Source: a virus (lineage: Duplodnaviria; Heunggongvirae; Uroviricota; Caudoviricetes). From it: a stretch of 20,880 nt of DNA. Position 1 is the stretch's first letter. Each line of letters opens with the position of its first letter. Made by a program: the position numbers and the translations under genes. The notes beneath the pieces were generated by a model. That model was not told the DNA's origin and did not search any database. It was given only the letters and a program-made list of their open reading frames with translations. Of this stretch, positions 1 through 18,812 are shown in pieces. The stretch lies in the IMG/VR virus record IMGVR_UViG_3300029080_000072. One strand, given 5' to 3'.

Positions 1-522
1 TCCTGCGCTGGAAGACGCTGACTGAGCCGACGTCGCGGCCTGCCCGGCTGATGTGCTGGCTGCACGTGCTGAGCCTGTAGCATCAGTCGCATGGGTTGCC
101 GCCTCACGGGCTGATGTGCCGGCATCGCTGGCTGACTTCTTCGCGGCTGCCGTGTCCTGTGCCACTGCGGACGCGTTACGCGCCACCTCTTCCACCATCA
201 GTTCAAAGCGGCGCAGTGCCTCCGGACGGGCATCATCCTCCGTCATGGCACCGAGAAAATCATTCAGCGTACCCGGTTGTGAGTCTTCATACACGGTGAT
301 GGTCCCGGCATGCGATGGCGGGAAGCCTTCCACCAACAGAATAACGCTGTACTGACCGTACTCAACGTCCATGCTGTAACGCCCTGCTTCATCCGGATTT
401 TCAGATGCCACCGTGTTCACCACCACCGTGGTGCTGTTACGTTTTGCTTTCAGCTGGATTGTGCAGTTCTGTACTGGTTTACCTGCACCGTCTTTCAGTA
501 CACCTGAAATCTTTACTGCCAT
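1..522 (-). CDS. stf: Side tail fiber protein Stf, N-terminal part (C-terminus runs off the window start)
   Basis: Minus-strand translation from ATG at 522-520 gives MAVKISGVLKDGAGKPVQNCTIQLKAK..., continuing into the Ala/Ser/Thr-rich segment (...ASTSAGQAATSAQSASSSAG) with no stop before position 1; matches remembered lambda Stf N-terminus. Confidence 0.85.
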   Translation of the reverse strand, partial: MAVKISGVLKDGAGKPVQNCTIQLKAKRNSTTVVVNTVASENPDEAGRYSMDVEYGQYSVILLVEGFPPSHAGTITVYEDSQPGTLNDFLGAMTEDDARPEALRRFELMVEEVARNASAVAQDTAAAKKSASDAGTSAREAATHATDATGSARAASTSAGQAATSAQSASSSAG

Positions 523-532
523 ATTCACCCCA

Positions 533-560
533 CAAAAAAGCCCGCCTGAACCGGCGGGCT
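533..560 (-). terminator. Putative rho-independent terminator between lom remnant and stf
   Basis: GC stem gcccgcc/ggcgggc (540-559) followed on the minus strand by a T6 run (complement of 533-538). Confidence 0.5.
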
Positions 561-586
561 GTCATAACACTGTGTTACCTGGCTAA

Positions 587-1124
587 TCAGAACTTATAAC
601 CGACACCCACGATGAAACCGTCAGTGCGCCAGTCGCCACTGCCGGAGCCTTCATAAACAATATCAATGGCCACGGATTCGGTCGGGTTAAACTGCACGCC
701 AGCCCCCCACGCCAGAGACGTGTTGCTGCGGCGACCGTCATCACTTCCGGTCAGCACTTCGTGCGTTTTCCCCTTGTTGTCAGTTACGCGGAGATAATCC
801 CCGGAGAAAGTCGAAATACGGCTGTAAGCCACACCCGCCATCGCATACGCGCTGAACCATTCATTCACGCGCACAGACGGCCCCGCCATCACGCTGAACC
901 AGCGGTTACGCACGGAATCTTCATGCCAGCGGGTATCGCTGTAATGAGTCAGCTGGCGATTCTTGTCTTCTGCATAGCTGAATGACGTCACCATCCCCAG
1001 CGTGTCCGTAAACTCATAACGGTATTTCACGTTAATCCCGTTAAGATCATCGCTGCCGGGAACGTTCGTCGAGGCATGAAGATACCCCGCGCTCAGCGTG
1101 GACTGATGTTCAGACGCCCATGCA
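587..1124 (-). pseudogene. lom: lom (Ail/Lom outer membrane protein) remnant lacking start codon and most of the signal peptide
   Basis: In-frame translation gives ...SGAPAWASEHQSTLSAGYLHASTNVPGSDDLNGINVKYRYEFTDTLGMVTSF...GFIVGVGYKF, matching lambda Lom from the end of its signal peptide to the C-terminus; upstream of about 1124 the sequence switches to terminase A. Confidence 0.8.
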
Positions 1125-1380
1125 GGCGCACCGGATAACCGACACGGGCAGACTTCACCACATTCACCTCACGGATGTAGTCGCTGCCCATCGCATTCAT
1201 GATGGCCCGCTGAAAGGGCAGTGTTTCCCAGCGCCCTTCCTGGTATGCGGATTCTTTCGGGAGATAGTAATTAGCATCCGCCCATTCAACGGCAGTCTGT
1301 GGCTCCGGCCTGAACAGTGAGCGAAGCCCGGCGCGGACAAAATGCCGCAGCATGTTAACCTGACTGTTCGATATATTCAC
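1125..1380 (-). pseudogene. A: Terminase large subunit gpA, N-terminal ~85 codons only, fused out of frame to lom
   Basis: MNISNSQVNMLRHFVRAGLRSLFRPEPQTAVEWADANYYLPKESAYQEGRWETLPFQRAIMNAMGSDYIREVNVVKSARVGY matches the remembered lambda gpA N-terminus; after ARVGY the frame runs ~13 codons into out-of-frame lom sequence and stops at 1093. Confidence 0.85.
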
Positions 1381-1900
1381 TCAGCAACCCCGGTATCAGT
1401 TCATCCAGCGCGGCTGCTTTGTTCATGGCTTTGATGATATCCCGTTTCAGGAAATCAACATGTCGGTTTTCCAGTTCCGGAAAACGCCGCTGCACCGACA
1501 GGGGGATCCCGTCGAGAATACTGGCAATTTCACCTGCAATCCGCGACAGCACGAAAGAACAGAATGCGGTTTCCACCACTTCAGCGGAGTCTCTGGCATT
1601 TTTCAGCTCCTGTGCGTCGGCCTGCGCACGCGTAAGTCGATGGCGTTCGTACTCAATAGTCCCTGGCTGGAGATCTGTCTCGCTGGCCTGTCGCAGTTCT
1701 TCAACCTCCCGGCGCAGCTTTTCGTTCTCAATTTCAGCATCCCTTTCGGTATACCATTTTATGACGGCGGCAGAGTCATAAAGCACCTCATTACCCTTCC
1801 CACCGCCTCGCAGAACGGGCATTCCCTGCTCCTGCCAGTTCTGAATGGTACGGATACTCGCACCGAAAATGTCAGCCAGCTGCTTTTTGTTGACTTCCAT
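1355..1900 (-). CDS. nu1: Terminase small subunit Nu1
   Basis: 181-aa product MEVNKKQLADIFGASIRTIQNWQEQGMPVLRGGGKGNEVLYDSAAVIKWY... is near-identical to lambda Nu1; its 3' end overlaps the A start as in lambda. Confidence 0.92.
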   Translation of the reverse strand: MEVNKKQLADIFGASIRTIQNWQEQGMPVLRGGGKGNEVLYDSAAVIKWYTERDAEIENEKLRREVEELRQASETDLQPGTIEYERHRLTRAQADAQELKNARDSAEVVETAFCSFVLSRIAGEIASILDGIPLSVQRRFPELENRHVDFLKRDIIKAMNKAAALDELIPGLLSEYIEQSG

Positions 1901-1904
1901 TGTT

Positions 1905-2130
1905 CATTCCACGGACAAAAACAGAGAAAGGAAACGACAGAGGCCAAAAAGCCCGTTTTCAGCACCTGTCGCTTCCTTTCTTTTCAGAGGGTATTTTAAA
2001 TAAAAACATTAAGTTATGACGAAGAAGAACGGAAACGCCTTAAACCGGAAAATTTTCATAAATAGCGAAAACCCGCGAGGTCGCCGCCCCGTAACCTGTC
2101 GGATCGCCGGAAAGGACCCGCAAAATGATA
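1905..2130 (-). other. cos site (cosB terminase-binding R elements, cosN, cosQ side)
   Basis: Minus strand reads ggggcggcgacctcgcgggttttcgctatttatgaaaattttccggtttaaggcgtttccgttcttcttcgtcataacttaatg...; the 12-nt cohesive-end sequence GGGCGGCGACCT is the complement of 2078-2089; repeated cgtttcc R-type elements lie between it and nu1. Confidence 0.8.
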
Positions 2131-2288
2131 ATAATTATCATCTACATGTCACAACGTGCATCTACGTCATCAAACCACGTCAAATAATCAATTATGACGC
2201 AGGTATCGTATTAATTGATCTGCATCAACTTAACGTAAAAACAACTTCAGACAATACAAATCAGCGACACTGAATACGGGGCAACCTC

Positions 2289-2483
2289 ATGTCAACTAAG
2301 AACAGAACCCGCAGAACAACAACCCGCAACATCCGCTTTCCTAACCAAATGATTGAACAAATTAACATCGCTCTTGAGCAAAAAGGGTCTGGGAATTTCT
2401 CAGCCTGGGTCATTGAAGCCTGCCGTCGGAGACTAACGTCAGAAAAGAGAGCATATACATCAATCCAAAGTGATGATGAATAA
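2289..2483 (+). CDS. Small conserved ORF near the lambda right end (hypothetical)
   Basis: 64-aa ORF MSTKNRTRRTTTRNIRFPNQMIEQINIALEQKGSGNFSAWVIEACRRRL...; the DNA resembles the lambda right-end region as remembered; function unknown. Confidence 0.4.
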   Translation: MSTKNRTRRTTTRNIRFPNQMIEQINIALEQKGSGNFSAWVIEACRRRLTSEKRAYTSIQSDDE

Positions 2484-2848
2484 ACATCCCGGTTTCTTCC
2501 ACCATCGCACCGGAAAAGCGACTATGAGGGTAACCCTGCGTCTGTCAGCACAGTAAAACCCGGTGTGCATCGTTTTTGATTATTCCCGCACACTCACGCA
2601 GAAGGAATTCCCCGTCGGGCTACGGTCATGGTTAATGCGGGAATACGGCGACGATACAGCGCAGCTAAAAGGGTAATGGACAGATAGAGCGGTTTATTTC
2701 ATTCCACAGGATTCTGAGTGCCCCCCTCCTCCAATAGGCTGAGCATCCACCTATATAGTTTTAGTTTTAATTTTCATCAATCCATTTAACTATCGTTTAA
2801 TTGTTGTCACATAGGATTCTGCCGTTTTTAACAATGCAGGATAATAAG

Positions 2849-3142
2849 ATGAAAAAAATGTTGTTTTCTGCCGCTCTGGCAATGCTTATTACAGGATGTG
2901 CTCAACAGACGTTTACTGTTGGAAACAAACCGACAGCAGTAACACCAAAGGAAACCATCACCCATCATTTCTTCGTTTCGGGAATTGGACAGGAGAAAAC
3001 TGTTGATGCAGCCAAAATTTGTGGCGGCGCAGAAAATGTTGTTAAAACAGAAACCCAGCAAACATTCGTAAATGGATTGCTCGGTTTTATTACTTTAGGC
3101 ATTTATACTCCGCTGGAAGCGCGGGTGTATTGCTCACAATAA
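2849..3142 (+). CDS. bor: Bor lipoprotein (serum-resistance lipoprotein)
   Basis: MKKMLFSAALAMLITGCAQQTFTV...GIYTPLEARVYCSQ has a lipobox (LITGC) and matches remembered lambda Bor; AGGA precedes the ATG at 2849; the tracked ORF start at 2801 is an upstream extension. Confidence 0.9.
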   Translation: MKKMLFSAALAMLITGCAQQTFTVGNKPTAVTPKETITHHFFVSGIGQEKTVDAAKICGGAENVVKTETQQTFVNGLLGFITLGIYTPLEARVYCSQ

Positions 3143-3152
3143 TTGCATGAGT

Positions 3153-3170
3153 TGCCCATCGACATGGGCA
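3153..3170. terminator. Hairpin between convergent bor and Rz (possible bidirectional terminator)
   Basis: tgcccat-cgac-atgggca inverted repeat; no strong T-tract on either side. Confidence 0.3.
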
Positions 3171-3173
3171 GCT

Positions 3174-3635
3174 CTATCTGCACTGCTCATTAATATACTT
3201 CTGGGTTCCTTCCAGTTGTTTTTGCATAGTGATCAGCCTCTCTCTGAGGGTGAAATAATCCCGTTCAGCGGTGTCTGCCAGTCGGGGGGAGGCTGCATTA
3301 TCCACGCCGGAGGCGGTGGTGGCTTCACGCACTGACTGACAGACTGCTTTGATGTGCAACCGACGACGACCAGCGGCAACACCATCACGCAGAGCATCAT
3401 TTTCAGCTTTCGCATTAGCTAACTCCTTCGTGTATTTTTCATCCAGTGCAGCAACATCACGCTGGCGCATCTGCATGTCAGTAATTGCCGCGTTCGCCAG
3501 CTTCAGTTCTCTGGCATTTTTGTCGCGCTGGGCTTTGTAGGTAATGGCGTTATCACGGTAATGATTAACAGCCCATGACAGGCAGACGATGATGCAGATA
3601 ACCAGAGCGGAGATAATCGCGGTTACTCTGTTCAT
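3174..3635 (-). CDS. Rz: Rz i-spanin
   Basis: [45 protein letters not shown]...QKYINEQCR is near-identical to lambda Rz; its ATG (3635-3633) overlaps the R stop. Confidence 0.9.
3233..3415 (-). CDS. Rz1: Rz1 o-spanin lipoprotein, embedded in Rz in another frame
   Basis: [60 protein letters not shown]: lipobox and proline-rich segment, matches lambda Rz1. Confidence 0.85.
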
Positions 3636-4129
3636 TGCTGACCCCACAAACAGATTTCACGCTCAATCTCACGACGAGTCATGAGACCTTTCCATTGCTT
3701 ACCGCCAGCATATGTCCAGCGACGTAGCTGATCACATGCGCCTTTGATATCGCCCTGGTTTATTTTGCGAAGAAGCGTCGATGTTCTGAAATTGCCAGCG
3801 CCCACGTTGTAAACGAACGAGTAAAGAGCGCCGCGCGTTGTTTCCGGTATATCAACTTTTATGTACGGGTTAATTTGTCTGGCGACCGTGGCAAGGTCTT
3901 TATTCAGGAGGGCTTTGCATTCTGCTTTGGTATACGTTTTACCGAGCATGATGTCTTTTCCTGTATGCCCGTGACATACAGTCCATACACCAACAATATC
4001 TTTGTATGGTATGTAGCTGACACCTTCCAGACCATCGTTACCACTTGGGCCAGTGATTAACACTGATGCTATAGCAATTGCTCCGCCACCAATAGCAGCA
4101 GCAACGGCTTTTCGTAATGATGGAGGCAT
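3632..4129 (-). CDS. R: SAR endolysin, phage-21/DLP12 RrrD type (T4-lysozyme-like)
   Basis: [59 protein letters not shown]... has an N-terminal Gly/Ala-rich signal-anchor-release segment followed by a lysozyme-like body; matches remembered R21/RrrD. Confidence 0.9.
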
Positions 4130-4344
4130 TATTCACCTCTCGCAGCCTTGCGCTTATCTTCTTTAATCTTGAAATAAAGGTTTGTCAGGTACGTCAGCAG
4201 GCCAAATACCAGGCTACCCAGCACACCTATTGCTGCCCACTGTGAGGGCGTGACTTTATCGAGCAGCTGTAAAAACCAGTAACCGGCACTACCTGCTGAG
4301 GTGCCATAGGCGACACCCGTTGTTAACTTATCCATGGATTTCAT
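4129..4344 (-). CDS. S: Class II holin (pinholin, S21/EssD type) with dual-start motif MKSM
   Basis: [71 protein letters not shown]; ATGs at 4344 and 4335 (Met1/Met4); GAGGTGGGG Shine-Dalgarno upstream; the tracked ORF start at 4389 is an extension. Confidence 0.85.
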
Positions 4345-4389
4345 AACCCCACCTCGCAGACAAAGCGGGTGTAAATTGAGGGAATACAA

Positions 4390-4932
4390 CGTATCGCAAA
4401 AAAGCAGAAACGTAACAGACTCGGAGTCAGTGAATAACTCAGGTATTGAGTTATCAGCTAATATCGAGACTCAAAAAATGGAAAAACCAGCTCGACGGCG
4501 GGTTTAAGCTGTGTGACGAAGTAACCACTCTTAACAGCATAACCAATTTTTTACGTACGTAAACCACTGAATGATATTTATGAGAATGCTACCGAGTGTT
4601 CAAAACACCACCACAAATACATAAGAAAACCTCAACAAATAACCAATAAATAATTTCAGACGTTATTTTTAGTTGATTTAAATTAAACTGCCGAATTATA
4701 GAACCTCCATAAATAACAACCATTAATATAAATTAGCTAATAGGTTTATTTTTGTTCAAATAAGAGCCATAAATAGGTTTCGATAGAAAAAGTTCAGATA
4801 AAAATAGAGATCTACTTCACAAATTAAATGAGAAACTAAAACTTACATCTTGAAATAATCACATTGATTAGATGAATATTTATCGCGCAGTGACATCATT
4901 TTTTAATAATAGTTCAAAAAAAAGGGCTCACG
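4390..4932 (+). promoter_or_regulatory. AT-rich ~540-bp upstream region of the porin gene (promoter/regulatory, exact elements not resolved)
   Basis: Very AT-rich non-coding stretch directly upstream of the porin ATG; AAGGG precedes the start. Confidence 0.4.
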
Positions 4933-6015
4933 ATGAAAAAATTAACAGTGGCAATTTCTGCTGTAGCTGCATCAGTACTGATGGCGATGTCTGCTCAGGC
5001 AGCTGAAATTTATAATAAAGACAGTAACAAGCTGGATCTATATGGGAAAGTTAATGCCAAGCACTACTTCTCCTCTAATGATGCAGATGATGGTGATACT
5101 ACTTATGCCCGTCTTGGCTTCAAAGGTGAAACCCAAATCAACGATCAACTGACTGGTTTCGGTCAGTGGGAATATGAATTCAAAGGCAACCGCGCTGAAT
5201 CTCAAGGCTCCTCCAAAGACAAAACCCGTCTTGCATTTGCAGGCCTGAAATTCGGGGACTACGGCTCAATCGATTACGGCCGTAACTACGGTGTAGCATA
5301 TGACATCGGTGCGTGGACTGACGTTCTGCCAGAATTCGGTGGCGATACCTGGACCCAAACAGATGTGTTCATGACTGGTCGCACCACTGGTGTTGCAACT
5401 TATCGTAACAACGACTTCTTTGGTCTGGTTGATGGTCTGAACTTTGCTGCTCAGTATCAGGGTAAAAATGACCGCACTGACGTAACTGAAGCTAATGGTG
5501 ATGGTTTCGGTTTCTCCACTACTTATGAGTATGAAGGATTCGGTGTAGGTGCAACCTATGCTAAATCTGACCGCACTAATAATCAGGTTATCTACGGTAA
5601 CAACAGCCTGAATGCATCTGGTCAAAATGCTGAAGTATGGGCAGCTGGTCTGAAATATGATGCGAACAACATCTATCTGGCTACCACCTATTCTGAAACC
5701 CAGAACATGACTGTTTTTGGTAATAACCATATTGCCAACAAAGCACAAAACTTCGAAGTAGTTGCACAATATCAGTTCGACTTCGGTCTGCGTCCGTCCG
5801 TTGCTTACCTGCAATCTAAAGGAAAAGACTTGGGTGCGTGGGGTGATCAGGACCTGGTTGAATATATTGATGTAGGTGCAACCTATTACTTCAACAAAAA
5901 TATGTCCACTTTTGTTGATTACAAAATCAACCTGATTGATAAGAGCGATTTCACGAAAGCATCTGGCGTTGCTACCGATGATATCGTTGCTGTAGGTATG
6001 GTTTACCAGTTCTAA
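4933..6015 (+). CDS. nmpC: OmpC/OmpF-family general porin (phage-borne NmpC/Lc-like), apparently intact
   Basis: 360 aa with signal peptide [23 protein letters not shown], typical porin beta-strand pattern and C-terminal ...VGMVYQF; matches remembered NmpC/Lc. Confidence 0.9.
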
Positions 6016-8337: not shown

Positions 8338-8967
8338 CTAAAACAAGGATAAACTTTGCCCTGCTCCAGGCGTTGGCTTTACAAATGTTACATCTTTAAT
8401 TCTTTCGCCTAGGAGAAAAAATTTGTCCAAAGATAGCGATGGTATTGTTGCAAACCCATCAGCCCCCTTTTTCCTAGCAACCCCTCTCACGTCCATGAGA
8501 ATTCGCCCTAATACGTTCATACCATAATAGTTACCTTCTGGGTCTTTACTGGCACCCCAGAATTGGTCCTTCTCTGAGTGTTCCACGATGAAATGGTCGC
8601 CTGTACTGTCTAACAGCGCAAAGAACGTATCCCAGTTCTGGCATAATTTTACGCATACACACCACTTCATAATCGAAACTCGATTCTTATCCCATCCTGC
8701 GCGAGTTTTGGATTCAAACGATCTTGCGGTCTGCTTGGCTTCATAGGGGTTTCCTTGAGTAATGATGGCCTTTTGTATATCCGGATAGTCTGGATATCGG
8801 CATGCTTGGTAAAGGATTTCACTTGATTGAATAGGCAACCCATTGATTAACAATGGATATCCTTTAGCCATGTTGGAAAGCCCCCCCCATTTTTCGGTGG
8901 TTTTCCTGAAGGAAACTGTGTTCTGTAGCGGATATAATCTATAGCTCATACCACTCATTATACCCAT
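8338..8967 (-). CDS. NADAR (YbiA/DUF1768-like) domain protein, predicted N-glycosidic/ADP-ribosyl hydrolase
   Basis: Motif pattern GGLSNM ... IQSSEILYQACRY ... IVEHSEKDQFWGA ... G.N.LGRILMDVR parallels E. coli YbiA (FSNF ... TSEHYFQAQKF ... VEHTENDAYWGDG ... GKNRLGYLLMELR); start ambiguous among ATGs at 8967, 8958, 8949, all overlapping the upstream gene. Confidence 0.7.
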   Translation of the reverse strand: MGIMSGMSYRLYPLQNTVSFRKTTEKWGGLSNMAKGYPLLINGLPIQSSEILYQACRYPDYPDIQKAIITQGNPYEAKQTARSFESKTRAGWDKNRVSIMKWCVCVKLCQNWDTFFALLDSTGDHFIVEHSEKDQFWGASKDPEGNYYGMNVLGRILMDVRGVARKKGADGFATIPSLSLDKFFLLGERIKDVTFVKPTPGAGQSLSLF

Positions 8968-9970
8968 TCCGCTTCATTAGTGGATACCAGCAGTCCAATG
9001 CGGGAGCACCTGTTGGTTCATAATCTCCCCACCAAAAAGCCAGCGGCACATTATTCGGGCAATTTCGATAAGTAAATGTTGTTCCCCCAAAACCCAAACC
9101 GTCAAAAGTAGAAAAACCTAGAGGTTTGAGCACCTCACTAGGGGTTTTCCTGTGCAGCAAGATATTAAAGCCGACTTTAGTAAGGATAGATTCGAAACGA
9201 TCCCTTGAGGCTTCATTTCTAAAACTATCAGAAGAGGCATATCCATCTCTGAATACGCCTTTGTAAAGCTCACACTCCTCGAATTTCTCGGGAGTATCTA
9301 CACTATATTTCCTTGGCCAGAAAACACCTGATTGAGCAGAACGACTTTTTCGGTTTTCAACCTCACGCATACCACCATTCTTCACGTGTACAAAAATGTT
9401 TCTATCCTTAAAAATATATTCTAATCGTCTTTTTATATTATAGTCAGATAACGTATGAGATGAAAAAAAATATACATTGAATTTAATATCTCTTAAATTA
9501 AATTTTAAAACAAAATTACTTATCGATTTGATGGCCTTTTCTCCTGAAAACGACACATCATCAATATATACAAATGTATCAAATTTATTTACTTCATCTT
9601 GAGTTGATGATTCAGTAACGATGTTAAATTTGATCCCTACTGTTTCATAAAGAGATTTAAGCAATTCCTTCTGACTAGAACCTTTTTTTTGAATATCTAA
9701 AAAACCTGCATATCTGAAGAATTTCGCGTTCTTTTCACTTCTTGCAATGGCTTTTATTTTTCGTTGATATTGACTTTCGGATAGGTAACCTGCATTAAGT
9801 AGATAAAGCGTTTCATCTAAGATAAATCGTCTATCCTCCACTGCAAATTGCTTAATCCATTTGCTGACATGTTCAGAGTTCATACCTTCAGCCGGAGGAT
9901 ATTTATAATCGCTCAACTTTTCAGCAATTTTATTGATTACTTTTTCACCAGATAAAATATTCGAGGACAT
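8939..9970 (-). CDS. Unassigned 343-aa protein (AT-rich cargo gene); weak PRTase-like DD motif; function unknown
   Basis: Uninterrupted ORF with AGGA 8 nt upstream of the ATG; FVYIDDVSFSGEKA resembles a type-I phosphoribosyltransferase PRPP motif; Trp/Gly-rich C-terminus; no family I recognise. Confidence 0.7.
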   Translation of the reverse strand: MSSNILSGEKVINKIAEKLSDYKYPPAEGMNSEHVSKWIKQFAVEDRRFILDETLYLLNAGYLSESQYQRKIKAIARSEKNAKFFRYAGFLDIQKKGSSQKELLKSLYETVGIKFNIVTESSTQDEVNKFDTFVYIDDVSFSGEKAIKSISNFVLKFNLRDIKFNVYFFSSHTLSDYNIKRRLEYIFKDRNIFVHVKNGGMREVENRKSRSAQSGVFWPRKYSVDTPEKFEECELYKGVFRDGYASSDSFRNEASRDRFESILTKVGFNILLHRKTPSEVLKPLGFSTFDGLGFGGTTFTYRNCPNNVPLAFWWGDYEPTGAPALDCWYPLMKRNGYNEWYEL

Positions 9971-10181
9971 AAAAATTCCTTTTCACAACACAGAATCTAA
10001 AAAATAAGAATACTTTTATTTATTTCAAGTATAGACCGTATATTCAACTACTTTTTTTTATAGTAGGGAGATACCGATCACAATTTTTAGATATCTAATG
10101 TGATGGTTTAATAACCAGCAGTCTTACGTGTTAATTCACGTAAAAAAACTCATCAAACCTTCCTCTTTTCAGTTAATTCTT
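9971..10181 (-). promoter_or_regulatory. AT-rich upstream region of the cargo cassette with a TACGTG-N6-CACGTA palindrome (10125-10142)
   Basis: ~210 bp, very AT-rich, between the methyltransferase stop and the cassette start; the palindrome is followed by an A7 run. Confidence 0.35.
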
Positions 10182-10766
10182 TTAAGAATAAACATCAGTA
10201 ACTCGGGCCGGGCTTAATGCTACGGTTGGCGAATCACACTTGTTTCCCCATACGTCGAAACCGTGGGAGGATTTACGCGCAAAGAGCTCAATACGTGGAA
10301 GATTACCCAGCAACCGAACCAGCATTTCACGCACGCAGTCTGGTTTACGTGAGTGCTCATGTCGCGGCGAGGTGTAGTGCTGGATGATCGAGGCGTCCTG
10401 CTGTGGTGCCCGCTTACCCTTTACCGCGAAAAGACAATCTTCACGGTTCGCCCGGATCAGGTGTCCCATTCCCATCGCCGATTTGTCAGTTTGCTTCGGG
10501 TAGGTTTTATCCCAAGTGAAACCTTTCATTGTGATCAGGCGAAATCCCCAGGCATCGACGACTTTCATCGCCTCGAACGTTTGAGTTGGCAACCACCACA
10601 TCGCCAGCTGGCAGCTTTCTGCAACCCGCTCCCTTACTGGCAGCCAGCAGATATCCTGCACCGTCATAACCAAGTATTTATGCCCGGTGCCACGCTTACC
10701 AGAATTGCATTTATCCTCGTACGTCCAGGGCGGATCCGCTTAGATCAACGTGTATTTCTTGTTCAT
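10182..10766 (-). pseudogene. Dam-like N6-adenine DNA methyltransferase (DPPW motif) interrupted by an in-frame TAA at codon 9
   Basis: Minus strand from ATG 10766 reads MNKKYTLI-TAA-ADPPWTYEDKCNSGKRGTGHKYLVMTVQDICWLP...; the stop (10742-10740) sits where intact homologs, as I remember them, have Tyr in LIYADPPW. Confidence 0.75.
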
Positions 10767-16034: not shown

Positions 16035-16820
16035 ATGAGTACAGCACTCGCAACGCTGGCAGGGAAGCTGGCTGAACGTGTCGGCATGGATTCTGTCGAC
16101 CCACAGGAACTGATCACCACTCTTCGCCAGACGGCATTTAAAGGTGATGCCAGCGATGCGCAGTTCATCGCATTGTTGATCGTCGCCAACCAGTACGGCC
16201 TTAATCCGTGGACGAAAGAAATTTACGCCTTCCCTGATAAGCAGAACGGCATTGTTCCGGTGGTGGGCGTTGATGGCTGGTCCCGCATCATCAATGAAAA
16301 CCAGCAGTTTGATGGTATGGACTTTGAGCAGGACAATGAATCCTGTACATGCCGGATTTACCGCAAGGACCGCAATCATCCGATCTGCGTCACCGAGTGG
16401 ATGGATGAATGCCGCCGCGAACCATTCAAAACCCGCGAAGGCAGAGAAATCACGGGGCCGTGGCAGTCGCATCCCAAACGGATGTTACGGCATAAAGCCA
16501 TGATTCAGTGTGCCCGTCTGGCCTTCGGATTTGCTGGTATCTATGACAAGGATGAAGCCGAGCGCATTGTCGAAAATACCGCATACACTGCAGAACGTCA
16601 GCCGGAACGCGACATCACTCCGGTTAACGATGAAACCATGCAGGAGATTAACACTCTGCTGATTGCCCTGGATAAAACATGGGATGACGACTTATTGCCG
16701 CTCTGTTCCCAGATATTTCGCCGCGACATTCGCGCATCGTCAGAACTGACACAGGCCGAAGCAGTGAAAGCTCTTGGATTCCTGAAACAGAAAGCCTCTG
16801 AGCAGAAGGTGGCTGCATGA
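16035..16820 (+). CDS. bet: Bet (Red-beta) single-strand annealing protein
   Basis: 261 aa, [69 protein letters not shown]..., essentially identical to lambda Bet. Confidence 0.95.
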
Positions 16821-17497
16821 CACCGGACATTATCCTGCAGCGTACCGGGATCGACGTGAGAGCTGTCGAACAGGGAGATGATGCGTGGAACAAATTACGA
16901 CTCGGCGTCATCACGGCTTCAGAAGTTCACAATGTGATAGCAAAACCCCGCTCCGGTAAAAAGTGGCCTGACATGAAAATGTCCTACTTTCACACCCTGC
17001 TGGCTGAGATTTGCACCGGTGTGGCTCCGGAAGTTAACGCTAAGGCGCTGGCCTGGGGAAAACAGTACGAGAATGACGCCAGAGCCCTGTTTGAGTTTAC
17101 TTCCGGCGTGAATGTTACTGAATCCCCGATCATCTATCGCGACGAAAGTATGCGCACCGCCTGCTCTCCCGATGGTTTATGCAGTGACGGCAACGGCCTT
17201 GAGCTGAAATGCCCGTTTACCTCCCGGGATTTCATGAAGTTCCGGCTCGGTGGTTTCGAGGCCATAAAGTCGGCTTACATGGCCCAGGTGCAGTACAGCA
17301 TGTGGGTGACACGAAAAGATGCCTGGTACTTTGCCAACTATGACCCGCGTATGAAGCGTGAAGGACTGCATTATGTCGTGGTTGAGCGGGATGAAAAGTA
17401 CATGGCGAGTTTTGACGAGATGGTGCCGGAGTTCATCGAAAAAATGGACGAGGCACTGGCTGAAATTGGTTTTGTATTTGGGGAGCAATGGCGATGA
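16817..17497 (+). CDS. exo: Lambda exonuclease (Red-alpha)
   Basis: 226 aa, [54 protein letters not shown]..., essentially identical to lambda Exo. Confidence 0.95.
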
Positions 17498-17652
17498 CGC
17501 ATCCTCACGATAATATCCGGGTAGGCGCGATCACTTTCGTCTACTCCATTACAAAGCGAGGCTGGGTATTTCCCGGCCTTTCTGTTATCAGAAATCCACT
17601 GAAAGCACAGCGGCTGGCTGAGAAGATAAATAATAAACAGGAGGATATATGA
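17494..17652 (+). CDS. Unannotated 52-aa micro-ORF translationally coupled between exo and the DGQHR gene
   Basis: ATG overlaps the exo stop (ATGA at 17494-17497) and its TGA overlaps the DGQHR ATG (ATGA at 17649-17652); product [52 protein letters not shown]; below the ORF-track size cutoff. Confidence 0.4.
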
Positions 17653-18713
17653 GTCAGGTTGGTAATCATTCATTCGAATTTCCGGCATCGCAAGGTGTAC
17701 AGGGTGGTACTGTTACACTCTTCCTTACCATACCAGGAAGATCGCTGGCTCGTTTCCTCGCTTCAGATAATTACGGCCATACACTGGAACGCTCTCAGCG
17801 AGAAATTAATCCAAATCGAGTACGAAAATTTTTAAATTATCTCACTAACGCAGACTCAAGAAATGAGTCTTTTATCATTCCCCCTCTCGTAGGTAACTGT
17901 GATTCGAATATAGAATTTGTACCGTTTGGCAACACAAATGTTGGTATAGCCAGAATTCCCCTCGACGCCGAAATAAAACTTTTTGATGGCCAACATCGTG
18001 CAGCTGGCATTGAGATATTTTGCCGAAGTTCCCCATCAACGCTCATGGTTCCCATGATGCTTACAATGAATCTGCCGCTAAAAACCCGGCAGCAGTTCTT
18101 TTCGGACATAAATAACAACGTTTCTAAGCCATCAGCGACCATCAATATGGCGTATAACGGCCGGGATGATATTGCTCAGGGAATGATATCCTTCCTGACC
18201 CAACATACTGTATTTGCCGATATAACCGATTTTGAACACAACGTAGTGCCATTAAAAAGTAATATGTGGGTGAGTTTCAAGGCACTCACTGATGCAACGT
18301 CAAAGTTTGCTAGGAACGGCAATCAACAACTTGAAATGGGATATATAGAATCTGTCTGGGAGGCATGGATTACACTAACTCAGATTGACTCAATCCGACA
18401 TGGTGTACACCACGCTACGTACAAGCGCGATTATATTCAGTTCCATGGAGTAATGATTAACGCTTTCGGTTTTGCGGTTCAACAGATGATGGTTAATCAT
18501 TCCATCGCAGAAATAACTTCTATGATCGAAAAACTCTGTGCAACTACCAGCTCTGCAGAAAGAGAGGATTTTTTTCTGATGGATAACTGGGCGGGGATCT
18601 GCACGAAAGCCAGCCAGGAAAAACTATCGGTTATTGCCAATGTGGCAGCGCAGAAAGCAGCAGCAAACAGACTGATACAAGCTTTTACCAAAGGAAGTCT
18701 GGAAACAACTTAA
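17649..18713 (+). CDS. DGQHR-domain (DndB-like, ParB/Srx-fold) protein
   Basis: Contains the literal motif FDGQHRAAGIE preceded by a region resembling what I recall of DndB-like proteins; AGGAGG 5 nt upstream of the ATG. Confidence 0.7.
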   Translation: MSQVGNHSFEFPASQGVQGGTVTLFLTIPGRSLARFLASDNYGHTLERSQREINPNRVRKFLNYLTNADSRNESFIIPPLVGNCDSNIEFVPFGNTNVGIARIPLDAEIKLFDGQHRAAGIEIFCRSSPSTLMVPMMLTMNLPLKTRQQFFSDINNNVSKPSATINMAYNGRDDIAQGMISFLTQHTVFADITDFEHNVVPLKSNMWVSFKALTDATSKFARNGNQQLEMGYIESVWEAWITLTQIDSIRHGVHHATYKRDYIQFHGVMINAFGFAVQQMMVNHSIAEITSMIEKLCATTSSAEREDFFLMDNWAGICTKASQEKLSVIANVAAQKAAANRLIQAFTKGSLETT

Positions 18714-18790
18714 TGAATCAACATTGTCTCATATCAGCATGCTGTACGGCGTCTTTAAGGAACGGTGAGCATGAAAAACAAAATCATCAT

Positions 18791-18812
18791 GGAGCTACAG
18801 GCTCCTTTTTTA
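18791..18812 (+). terminator. Rho-independent terminator after the DGQHR gene
   Basis: ggagc-tacag-gctcc hairpin followed by tttttt. Confidence 0.55.

What the first reader, a model, noticed from the sequence alone, without database searches (positions are those of the whole stretch)
17494..17652. Unannotated 52-aa micro-ORF linking exo to the DGQHR gene by ATGA overlaps at both ends
An ATG overlaps the exo stop (cgATGA), and 52 codons later its TGA overlaps the ATG of the DGQHR gene (atATGA, with AGGAGG just upstream). Such back-to-back start/stop overlaps are a hallmark of translational coupling, so the micro-protein ([52 protein letters not shown]) may be real and co-expressed with the DGQHR protein.
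Basis: seen in the sequence. Interest (0 to 1): 0.4.

Follow-up and report, generated by a model that had tools for sequence, protein, structure and literature searches.

The report
Lambda orf60a homologue, already annotated
The 52-codon ORF between exo and the DGQHR gene is a real, already annotated small phage gene: the DUF1317 family homologue of lambda orf60a. Its ATGA overlaps are the ordinary tight packing of a lambdoid early operon, not a new feature.

Summary
ATG 17494 overlaps the exo stop, TGA 17650-17652 overlaps the DGQHR start at 17649, and AGGAGG sits at 17639-17644.

The ORF is not unannotated. The window matches E. coli E94 at 100%, and RefSeq calls exactly these coordinates WP_000149533.1, "DUF1317 family protein". 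It is 88% identical to lambda Orf60a and matches Pfam PF07026 (E 3.8e-31).

It is a genuine protein-coding gene:
- In 20 diverse homologues only this frame stays open.
- pN is below pS in 190 of 190 pairs.
- The [10 protein letters not shown] motif is invariant while its codons vary freely.

Published work on lambda and Phi24B reports expression and a mild pro-lytic deletion phenotype.

The ATGA geometry is common: 9 of about 31 same-strand junctions in this prophage have it. It is conserved family-wide. In 37 of 40 loci from different species the DUF1317 stop overlaps the next start, and the last codons encode that gene's Shine-Dalgarno sequence.

The next gene varies and is usually a DNA-modification gene (30 of 40 loci). 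Here the DGQHR gene replaces lambda orf63 and orf61 exactly from the shared ATG.

Translational coupling is plausible but untested. No RNA structure masks the DGQHR ribosome-binding site.

Verdict: already known, low interest.

The parts
17494..17652 (+). DUF1317 / lambda orf60a homologue, 52 aa. The conserved core is residues about 6-48. Residues 49-52 (QEDI) are a variable tail that also encodes the Shine-Dalgarno sequence of the next gene.
   Evidence: Pfam PF07026, 107 bits against a cut-off of 22.3. phrog_1998. 46/52 identical to lambda Orf60a. RefSeq CDS WP_000149533.1 at these coordinates. pN below pS in 190 of 190 pairs. Only frame open in 20 of 20 diverse sequences.
16817..17497 (+). 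Lambda exonuclease (exo / Red-alpha) gene. Its TGA (17495-17497) overlaps the micro-ORF ATG.
   Evidence: YqaJ domain, phrog_149, RefSeq annotation. The same 4-nt overlap occurs in lambda.
17480..17485 (+). GGGGAG, a Shine-Dalgarno-like element 8 nt upstream of ATG 17494, inside the 3' end of exo.
   Evidence: Read from the sequence. Identical in lambda and phage 4A7.
17558..17590 (+). Terminator-like hairpin inside the ORF (codons 22-30): GAGGCTGGG-TATTT-CCCGGCCTT followed by a T-rich tail. It equals predicted terminator t1 of lambda and Phi24B, and is probably the classical lambda tL3.
   Evidence: Terminator scan. RNA fold -19.3 kcal/mol, z = -3.2. Same hairpin in lambda at 31265-31287. Same sequence listed as t1 in PMC4195576 Table 4. 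Present only in the lambda-like lineage of the family. The tL3 identity rests on my recollection plus indirect support.
17639..17644 (+). AGGAGG Shine-Dalgarno sequence of the DGQHR gene, encoded by codons 49-51 of the micro-ORF, 4 nt before ATG 17649.
   Evidence: An equivalent Shine-Dalgarno sequence in the tail is found in 35 of 37 overlapping relatives at 4 nt or more, and in 28 of 37 at 5 nt or more.
17644..17651 (.). Left mosaic junction. Similarity to lambda-like phages ends here, at the start codon shared in position by lambda orf63 and the DGQHR gene.
   Evidence: Megablast matches stop at query position 345-352. In the alignment, the lambda orf63 ATG falls in the same column as the DGQHR ATG.
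17649..18713 (+). DGQHR-domain (DndB-like) gene, 354 aa. It is the cargo occupying the slot after DUF1317 and replaces lambda orf63 and orf61.
   Evidence: TIGR03187 DGQHR, 189 bits. Pfam DndB. PADLOC DndB. N-terminus conserved from residue 1 in Salmonella and Klebsiella phage homologues. TAA stop at 18711-18713.
18733..18805 (+). Right mosaic junction (similarity to lambda and 4A7 resumes at about 18733-18735, roughly 20 nt after the DGQHR stop) and the conserved hairpin t2 (18791-18805) ahead of the orf73-like TraR/DksA gene.
   Evidence: Alignment. Terminator scan. t2 sequence in PMC4195576 Table 4.

Best explanation
**What it is.** The ORF is the DUF1317 gene, the homologue of bacteriophage lambda orf60a. 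It sits in a defective lambdoid prophage of E. coli.

**Shown here.**
- It is a conserved protein-coding gene.
- It is annotated in RefSeq.
- It lies directly after exo, as in lambda.
- Its last four codons encode the ribosome-binding site of the next gene.
- Its stop overlaps that gene's start.
- The DGQHR gene is a gene-sized cassette that replaces lambda orf63 and orf61. The replacement runs from the shared start codon to about 20 nt past the DGQHR stop.

**Inferred.**
- The gene is transcribed with gam-bet-exo from the early leftward (pL-type) promoter. No promoter-like site on its strand lies between the start of the scanned region (15600, upstream of gam) and 18322, inside the DGQHR gene.
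- Ribosomes finishing DUF1317 terminate on the AUGA and can reinitiate on, or hand over to, the DGQHR start. The embedded AGGAGG also permits direct initiation. The two proteins would therefore be made together early after induction.
- The protein folds as a three-stranded beta-sheet packed against a C-terminal helix carrying the invariant [10 protein letters not shown] motif. It most likely acts as a small nucleic-acid-binding or protein-binding regulator that modestly favours lytic development, as reported for lambda and Phi24B orf60a deletions.

The ATGA overlaps are the ordinary compaction of this operon, not evidence of a special tie to the DGQHR protein.
For: **Identity.**
- PF07026, E 3.8e-31.
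- phrog_1998, E 6e-32.
- 88% identity to lambda Orf60a.
- Same position and the same exo overlap as lambda.
- RefSeq CDS at identical coordinates in the 100%-matching genome.

**Coding status.**
- Mean pN 0.29 against pS 0.73, with pN below pS in 190 of 190 pairs.
- Invariant N34-E43 motif with 2-8 synonymous codons per position.
- Only this frame is open in 20 of 20 diverse sequences. pN/pS is 0.40 here, against at least 1.0 in the other frames except the expected antisense artefact.
- The only indel is a two-codon one.

**Spread.**
- 407 protein clusters across Enterobacteriaceae, typically 52 aa.
- 3587 of 5426 complete E. coli genomes match the exo-DUF1317 stretch. 281 carry the DGQHR junction.

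**Junction.**
- 37 of 40 loci have an NTGA overlap with a Shine-Dalgarno sequence in the tail.

**Structure.**
- AlphaFold2 mean pLDDT 86.9. Strands at 8-10, 13-18 and 23-25; helix at 35-51.

**Literature.**
- Deleting orf60a raises lysogenization and host survival and delays induction, more strongly in Phi24B than in lambda (PMC6213356).
- orf60a mRNA is about as abundant as N mRNA after infection. A frameshift in orf60a abolishes a plasmid-borne effect on spontaneous induction (PMC4195576).
- PMC8614690 states that ribosome profiling of lambda confirmed these ORFs as expressed.
- CRISPRi finds the gene non-essential in lambda (PMC10695390).
Against: - No expression data exist for this prophage, which is defective: its terminase and lom genes are truncated.
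- Coupling is untested. The DGQHR ribosome-binding site is unstructured, so independent initiation is possible.
- A terminator-like hairpin inside the ORF could uncouple transcription of DGQHR from exo unless an antiterminator acts.
- The biochemical function is unknown. Foldseek gave no PDB match and no significant viral match. The published resemblance to integrase-type DNA-binding domains was therefore not reproduced here.
Confidence: 0.85

Rival explanations
1. DUF1317 is a dedicated partner or controller of the DNA-modification gene that follows it. It might target or time methyltransferases, DpdA-like, DndB-like or DndC-like enzymes on phage DNA, and the ATGA junction would enforce stoichiometric co-production.
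For: - In 40 loci from different species, 30 have a DNA-modification-type gene right after DUF1317. These are 22 methyltransferases of at least five types, 5 DGQHR, 2 DpdA-like and 1 PAPS-reductase/DndC-like.
- Within one near-identical DUF1317 clade, at least ten cargo families all join at the same ATGA.
- The beta-beta-beta-alpha model is compatible with a DNA-binding domain.
Against: - Cargo also includes unrelated genes: orf63, HNH endonuclease, TraR/DksA, DUF4406 and PD-(D/E)XK-like.
- Lambda and Phi24B have no modification gene there, yet deleting orf60a still gives a phenotype.
- DGQHR homologues occur without DUF1317 in Klebsiella and Vibrio phages.
- The enzymes are too diverse to share one small cofactor.
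- 4-nt overlaps are common in these operons anyway. They occur at 21 of 40 upstream junctions and at 9 of about 31 junctions in the window.
Confidence: 0.1
2. The ORF matters only as a translated leader. Its translation delivers ribosomes to the next gene, and the peptide itself has no function.
For: The ORF is short. The Shine-Dalgarno sequence and ATGA at its 3' end are conserved in 37 of 40 loci regardless of the downstream gene. The gene is non-essential in lambda.
Against: - The amino-acid sequence is strongly constrained while synonymous sites vary freely. Ten consecutive residues are invariant or nearly so across sequences only 41-100% identical.
- The AlphaFold2 model is confident.
- A leader would not need a conserved fold.
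- A frameshift in lambda orf60a has a phenotype on a plasmid.
Confidence: 0.04
3. The ORF is spurious. The DNA is conserved because it carries a transcription terminator (t1, probably tL3) or other regulatory RNA after exo.
For: A strong hairpin with a T-rich tail lies inside the ORF. It is predicted as a terminator in lambda and Phi24B.
Against: - The hairpin occurs only in the lambda-like lineage, while the ORF and its frame persist in lineages that lack it.
- The codon-position pattern of substitutions fits coding in this frame only.
Confidence: 0.01

Closest known systems
Bacteriophage lambda orf60a (lambdap39, NP_040615.1; Pfam DUF1317) and its Stx-phage homologue vb_24B_9c
   Same: - 46 of 52 residues are identical.
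- The position directly after exo and the ATGA overlap with the exo stop are the same.
- The internal hairpin is the same.
- The start codon of the following gene is at the same position.
   Different: - The window protein is 52 aa and lambda's is 60 aa. In lambda the next gene (orf63) starts ATG-CAC, so no TGA forms and orf60a reads 8 codons further, giving a 28-nt overlap.
- Here the next gene starts ATG-AGT, which gives the ATGA.
- 52 aa is the usual length in the family, so lambda is the outlier.
- The downstream gene is a DGQHR gene instead of orf63 and orf61.
Stop/start-overlap (AUGA or UGAUG) translational coupling in bacterial and phage operons, as in the E. coli trp operon (established knowledge)
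   Same: There is a 4-nt overlap. The Shine-Dalgarno sequence of the downstream gene lies inside the upstream coding sequence. Both genes are on one transcript.
   Different: Dependence of downstream translation on upstream translation has not been measured. No secondary structure masks the downstream ribosome-binding site, so any coupling would work by termination-reinitiation only.
Three-stranded beta-sheet DNA-binding domains (lambda Int N-terminal domain 1KJK, Tn916 Int 1B69, CedA 2BN8, AtERF 1GCC), proposed for Orf60a in PMC8614690
   Same: The AlphaFold2 model has three antiparallel strands followed by one helix, which is the same topology.
   Different: There is no detectable sequence similarity to any PDB chain and no Foldseek match to the PDB. 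DNA binding has never been tested.
[quoted passage not shown]
   Same: The DGQHR gene is a gene-sized replacement whose junctions lie at gene boundaries. Related phages carry methyltransferases and other DNA-modification genes at the same slot.
   Different: The left junction coincides exactly with the ATGA in many cargo families. I did not find this described in the 4 papers that mention DUF1317 or the 21 that mention orf60a.

Membership tests
DUF1317 (Pfam PF07026) / lambda orf60a | Scores above the curated Pfam gathering threshold | tested here: met
   107.1 bits against a cut-off of 22.3, E 3.8e-31, covering residues 1-49. Also phrog_1998, E 6.2e-32.
DUF1317 (Pfam PF07026) / lambda orf60a | Conserved core residues (W24, P27, N34-P-L-K-A-Q-R-x-A-E43) | tested here: met
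   All are present in the window protein. They are invariant or nearly so in alignments of 21 to 83 members.
DUF1317 (Pfam PF07026) / lambda orf60a | Position in the early leftward operon directly after the recombination genes | tested here: met
   The order is gam-bet-exo-DUF1317, with the same 4-nt exo overlap as in lambda.
DUF1317 (Pfam PF07026) / lambda orf60a | The protein is translated and its loss gives a pro-lytic-defect phenotype | not testable with these tools
   Known only from the literature on lambda and Phi24B. There are no data for this prophage.
Translationally coupled gene pair | Stop codon of the upstream gene overlaps or abuts the start codon of the downstream gene on one mRNA | tested here: met
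   ATGA at 17649-17652. No promoter-like site on the + strand between 15600 and 18322.
Translationally coupled gene pair | Downstream ribosome-binding site sequestered in mRNA structure that upstream translation opens | tested here: not met
   In the minimum-free-energy fold of 17590-17690 the Shine-Dalgarno sequence is unpaired. The energy is no better than shuffled sequence (z = +0.68).
Translationally coupled gene pair | Downstream translation depends on upstream translation | not testable with these tools
   This needs reporter fusions with upstream stop or start mutations.
Integrase-N / Tn916 / AP2-type three-stranded-sheet DNA-binding domain | Beta-beta-beta-alpha topology | tested here: met
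   AlphaFold2 model, pLDDT 86.9. Strands at 8-10, 13-18 and 23-25; helix at 35-51.
Integrase-N / Tn916 / AP2-type three-stranded-sheet DNA-binding domain | Significant structural or sequence match to solved members | tested here: not met
   phmmer against the PDB gave 0 hits at E up to 10. Foldseek against the PDB gave 0 hits. Very small domains are hard for Foldseek. The RMSD values of 1.7-2.2 Å in PMC8614690 were not reproduced.
Integrase-N / Tn916 / AP2-type three-stranded-sheet DNA-binding domain | Binds DNA | not testable with these tools
   No experiment is reported.

The most novel reading that the evidence does not exclude
DUF1317 may be more than the last gene of the recombination module. 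It could be the fixed 5' anchor of a hypervariable DNA-modification (anti-restriction) cargo slot in temperate phages of Enterobacteriaceae. Its tail supplies the Shine-Dalgarno sequence and ATGA for whichever cargo is installed. The small DNA-binding-like protein might act with, or time, the modification enzyme made from the same ribosome pass. The positional pattern is shown here. The functional link is speculation.
Probability: 0.1. Interest if true: 0.5.

Novelty: already known. Interest (0 to 1): 0.15.

Why it matters
As a finding it matters little. The ORF is a known, annotated family with published genetics, and the overlaps are normal operon packing.

Two by-products may be useful.

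1. The canonical DUF1317 protein is 52 aa, with a tail dictated by the next gene's ribosome-binding site. Lambda's 60-aa form is the exception.
2. The site immediately after DUF1317 is a recurrent, start-codon-precise slot for DNA methyltransferases and DpdA-, DndB- and DndC-like genes across Enterobacteriaceae prophages. This gives a simple landmark for finding phage DNA-modification or anti-restriction cargo. It also places the DGQHR gene of this prophage in that functional company.

Tried and rejected
- **NCBIfam.** No model matches the micro-protein.
- **PADLOC.** No defence-system model matches the micro-protein.
- **PDB sequence search.** No hit at E up to 10.
- **Foldseek with the AlphaFold2 model.** There were 0 PDB hits and nothing significant in BFVD (best E 0.06, unnamed proteins). 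The integrase-like DNA-binding-domain idea therefore stays unconfirmed.
- **RNA structure masking the DGQHR ribosome-binding site.** None was found.
- **Hairpin inside the ORF as the reason for conservation.** Rejected, because it is lineage-specific.
- **Antisense 105-aa ORF (17371-17688, minus strand).** Rejected. That frame is closed in 14 of 20 relatives and shows no coding signature.
- **Upstream ATG at 17488 as the start.** Rejected. The Shine-Dalgarno spacing is 2 nt, and the Met-Ala extension is absent from relatives.
- **My own misreading.** I first read the right junction as lying inside the DGQHR C-terminus and matching the lambda orf61 3' end. That was wrong. The shared sequence is intergenic and starts about 20 nt after the DGQHR stop.
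- **Published coordinates for lambda tL3.** I could not find any. The identification of the hairpin as tL3 rests on my memory plus indirect hints.
- **Contaminated hits.** Many 'hits' in non-enteric genomes (L085-L099) are lambda DNA contamination, so I excluded them from the counts.

Full report
**1. The observation**

- exo (16817-17497) ends GGCG-ATGA, so the ATG at 17494 overlaps its TGA.
- The ORF runs 52 codons to a TGA at 17650-17652.
- That TGA overlaps the ATG at 17649 of a 354-aa gene.
- AGGAGG lies at 17639-17644.
- bet/exo is also an ATGA overlap.
- The ORF's own Shine-Dalgarno-like GGGGAG (17480-17485) is 8 nt from ATG 17494. It is only 2 nt from an in-frame ATG at 17488, so 17494 is the better start. 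Relatives also begin there.

On its own this is not remarkable. The window has 150 ORFs of at least 40 aa. In the RefSeq annotation of this same DNA, 9 of about 31 same-strand gene junctions are 4-nt overlaps (my count).

**2. Identity**

- The window is 100% identical to E. coli strain E94, NZ_CP119740.1, positions 2916049-2936928.
- RefSeq annotates 17494-17652 there as WP_000149533.1, 'DUF1317 family protein'. Its neighbours are 'lambda exonuclease family protein' and 'DGQHR domain-containing protein' (the same in strains 042 and WCHEC020031). The ORF is therefore not unannotated.
- It matches Pfam DUF1317 (PF07026, 107 bits, cut-off 22.3) and phrog_1998.
- It is 46/52 identical to lambda Orf60a, NP_040615.1.
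- The element is a defective lambdoid prophage. It has a DLP12-type late region, truncated terminase and lom genes, an S24 repressor, kil-gam-bet-exo, then DUF1317, DGQHR, TraR/DksA (lambda orf73-like), DUF4222, xis and int.

**3. Is it a real gene?**

I collected 80 viral contigs and 57 species-representative genome loci. About 17 of the genome loci are lambda DNA contaminating non-enteric assemblies, and I set those aside.

Among 59 distinct coding sequences that are 41-100% identical at the protein level:
- The only indel is a two-codon one.
- For 20 diverse sequences, mean pN is 0.29 against pS 0.73, and pN is below pS in all 190 pairs.
- The motif N34-P-L-K-A-Q-R-L-A-E43 is invariant or nearly so in protein, while each position uses 2-8 synonymous codons. 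The constraint is therefore on the protein, not the DNA.
- Only this frame is open in 20 of 20 sequences. Its pN/pS of 0.40 contrasts with at least 1.0 in the other frames, apart from the expected antisense artefact.

The family has 407 clusters at 90% identity, all in Enterobacteriaceae, and the typical length is 50-52 aa. The exo-DUF1317 stretch matches in 3587 of 5426 complete E. coli genomes.

Published work supports a real gene:
- Ribosome profiling of lambda is stated to have confirmed these ORFs as expressed (PMC8614690).
- orf60a mRNA is about as abundant as N mRNA after infection, and a frameshift in orf60a abolishes a plasmid effect on spontaneous induction (PMC4195576).
- Deleting orf60a increases lysogenization and host survival and delays induction, more strongly in Phi24B than in lambda (PMC6213356).
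- The gene is non-essential by CRISPRi (PMC10695390).

**4. Anatomy of the two junctions**

Similarity to sequenced lambda-like phages stops at window position 17644-17651.

In an alignment with lambda and phage 4A7, the lambda orf63 ATG is in the same column as the DGQHR ATG. A related purine-rich stretch precedes both: GAGGGG-CTGT-ATG in lambda and AGGAGG-ATAT-ATG here.
- In lambda the next codon is CAC, so orf60a reads on for 8 codons. That gives 60 aa and a 28-nt overlap with orf63.
- Here the next codon is AGT, which creates the TGA.

The last four residues (QEDI) are thus a by-product of the next gene's ribosome-binding site.

On the right, the DGQHR gene ends with TAA at 18711-18713. 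Similarity to lambda and 4A7 resumes at about 18733, ahead of the conserved hairpin t2 (18791-18805) and the orf73-like gene. The DGQHR gene is therefore a gene-sized cassette replacing lambda orf63 and orf61. I first misread this right junction as lying inside the coding sequence, and I have corrected that.

281 complete E. coli genomes carry this exact arrangement. Salmonella phage SPN1S has DUF1317-ATGA-DGQHR followed by a DNA methyltransferase.

**5. Translational coupling**

*For coupling.*
- In 40 loci from different species, 37 have the DUF1317 stop overlapping an ATG or TTG of the next gene. 35 of these are ATGA.
- A core of at least 4 nt of AGGAGG lies in the preceding 13 nt in 35 of the 37.
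- This holds whatever the next gene is. 13 of 16 unrelated downstream families show it.
- Within one near-identical Enterobacter-type DUF1317 clade, similarity breaks exactly after ATGA in front of at least ten different genes.

*Against over-reading it.*
- 4-nt overlaps are common in these operons. They occur at 21 of 40 upstream junctions of the same gene and at 9 of about 31 junctions in the window.
- The DGQHR ribosome-binding site is not buried in RNA structure.
- AGGAGG would support independent initiation.

Coupling by termination-reinitiation is a reasonable inference but has not been shown.

**6. Is there a specific tie to the DGQHR protein?**

No.
- The next gene is orf63 in lambda-like phages.
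- Elsewhere it is one of many types: C5-cytosine/N6-adenine methyltransferase fusions, Dam-type, D12-type, MT-A70 or N6_N4 methyltransferases, two further phage methyltransferase families, a DpdA-like transglycosylase (phrog_887), a PAPS-reductase/DndC-like protein, DGQHR, a PD-(D/E)XK-like protein, an HNH endonuclease, TraR/DksA or DUF4406.
- A Klebsiella phage has a DGQHR gene preceded by an unrelated hydrophobic 44-aa ORF, again with ATGA at both ends. A Vibrio phage has DGQHR plus a methyltransferase and no DUF1317.

The striking point is that 30 of 40 loci have a DNA-modification-type gene in this slot. I record this as noticed in passing and as the basis of the novel reading.

**7. Structure and likely function**

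AlphaFold2 with an 83-sequence alignment gives a confident model (mean pLDDT 86.9). It has three short strands (8-10, 13-18, 23-25) and a helix at 35-51 that carries the invariant motif. The last two residues have low confidence.

This agrees in topology with the published lambda Orf60a models, which were compared to the integrase-N, Tn916, CedA and AP2 DNA-binding domains. However, the sequence search of the PDB and the Foldseek searches of the PDB and BFVD gave nothing significant. Membership of that fold class is therefore unconfirmed.

My best guess is a small regulator that binds nucleic acid or a partner protein and tilts development towards lysis. This rests mainly on the literature.

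**8. Other features**

A 9-bp GC-rich hairpin with a T-rich tail lies inside the ORF at 17558-17590.
- It is identical to lambda 31265-31287 and to predicted terminator t1 of PMC4195576.
- From memory it is the classical lambda tL3. Indirect support: pKD plasmids list tL3, and a pKD-derived scar is annotated as DUF1317 plus DUF1382. I found no paper giving coordinates.
- It is lineage-specific, so it does not explain the conservation of the ORF.
- It would make DGQHR transcription depend on antitermination.

No promoter-like site on the + strand lies between 15600 and 18322. This fits the DGQHR gene being an early lytic gene rather than one expressed in the lysogen.

**9. Verdict**

The feature is already known and is ordinary operon architecture. 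Interest is low. The cargo-slot pattern is a modest, possibly unreported, by-product.

Noticed in passing
L100, L103-L140 (match at about 3001-3156 in each) and window 17639-17652: The gene after DUF1317 is hypervariable. There are 16 unrelated families of 62-814 aa, but the gene almost always starts at an ATGA formed with the DUF1317 stop (37 of 40 loci). In 30 of 40 loci it is a DNA-modification-type gene: methyltransferases of several classes, DGQHR/DndB-like, DpdA-like, or PAPS-reductase/DndC-like. Within one near-identical DUF1317 clade, similarity breaks exactly after ATGA.
   Followed up: partly
window 17558-17590: A terminator-like hairpin (-19.3 kcal/mol) lies inside the DUF1317 coding sequence. 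It is identical to lambda 31265-31287 and to predicted terminator t1 of PMC4195576. It is probably lambda tL3 (from memory only). It is present only in the lambda-like lineage of the family.
   Followed up: partly
window 17649 to about 18733: The DGQHR gene is a gene-sized cassette that replaces lambda orf63 and orf61. The left junction is at the shared start codon, and the right junction is about 20 nt after the stop. The conserved t2 hairpin (18791-18805) and the orf73-like TraR/DksA gene follow.
   Followed up: yes
L142 (Salmonella phage SPN1S, NC_016761.1) 3001-3073: The RefSeq start of the SPN1S DGQHR gene (locus position 3073) is probably too far downstream. The conserved N-terminus MSKVGDYFFEFPASRG begins at the ATG at 3001, which overlaps the DUF1317 stop. 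A DNA methyltransferase follows with another 4-nt overlap.
   Followed up: partly
L085-L099, L101, L102: Lambda DNA, including contigs of about 48.4-48.5 kb at roughly 1x coverage, appears in genome assemblies of Shewanella, Pseudomonas, Bradyrhizobium, Paenibacillus, Kitasatospora and others. This is contamination by lambda control DNA, not real hosts of DUF1317.
   Followed up: no
window 8338-10766 (minus strand): The nin-type region carries a NADAR family gene overlapping a phosphoribosyltransferase-like gene (8338-9970). It also carries an MT-A70 methyltransferase pseudogene with an internal stop (10182-10766).
   Followed up: no
window 1-6015: The prophage is defective and DLP12-like. It has truncated lom and terminase genes, nohD, the essD-rrrD-rzpD lysis genes, and iss and an ompC-type porin gene as morons.
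   Followed up: no
window 17371-17688 (minus strand): A 105-aa antisense ORF spans the exo 3' end, the whole micro-ORF and the DGQHR start. That frame is closed in 14 of 20 relatives and shows no coding signature, so the ORF is spurious.
   Followed up: yes
P0142, P0143, P0145, P0186, P0199, P0210: Some database proteins fuse DUF1317 with DUF1382 (orf63), DUF551 or Dam domains. These are probably gene-calling or frameshift artefacts at the overlapping junction.
   Followed up: no
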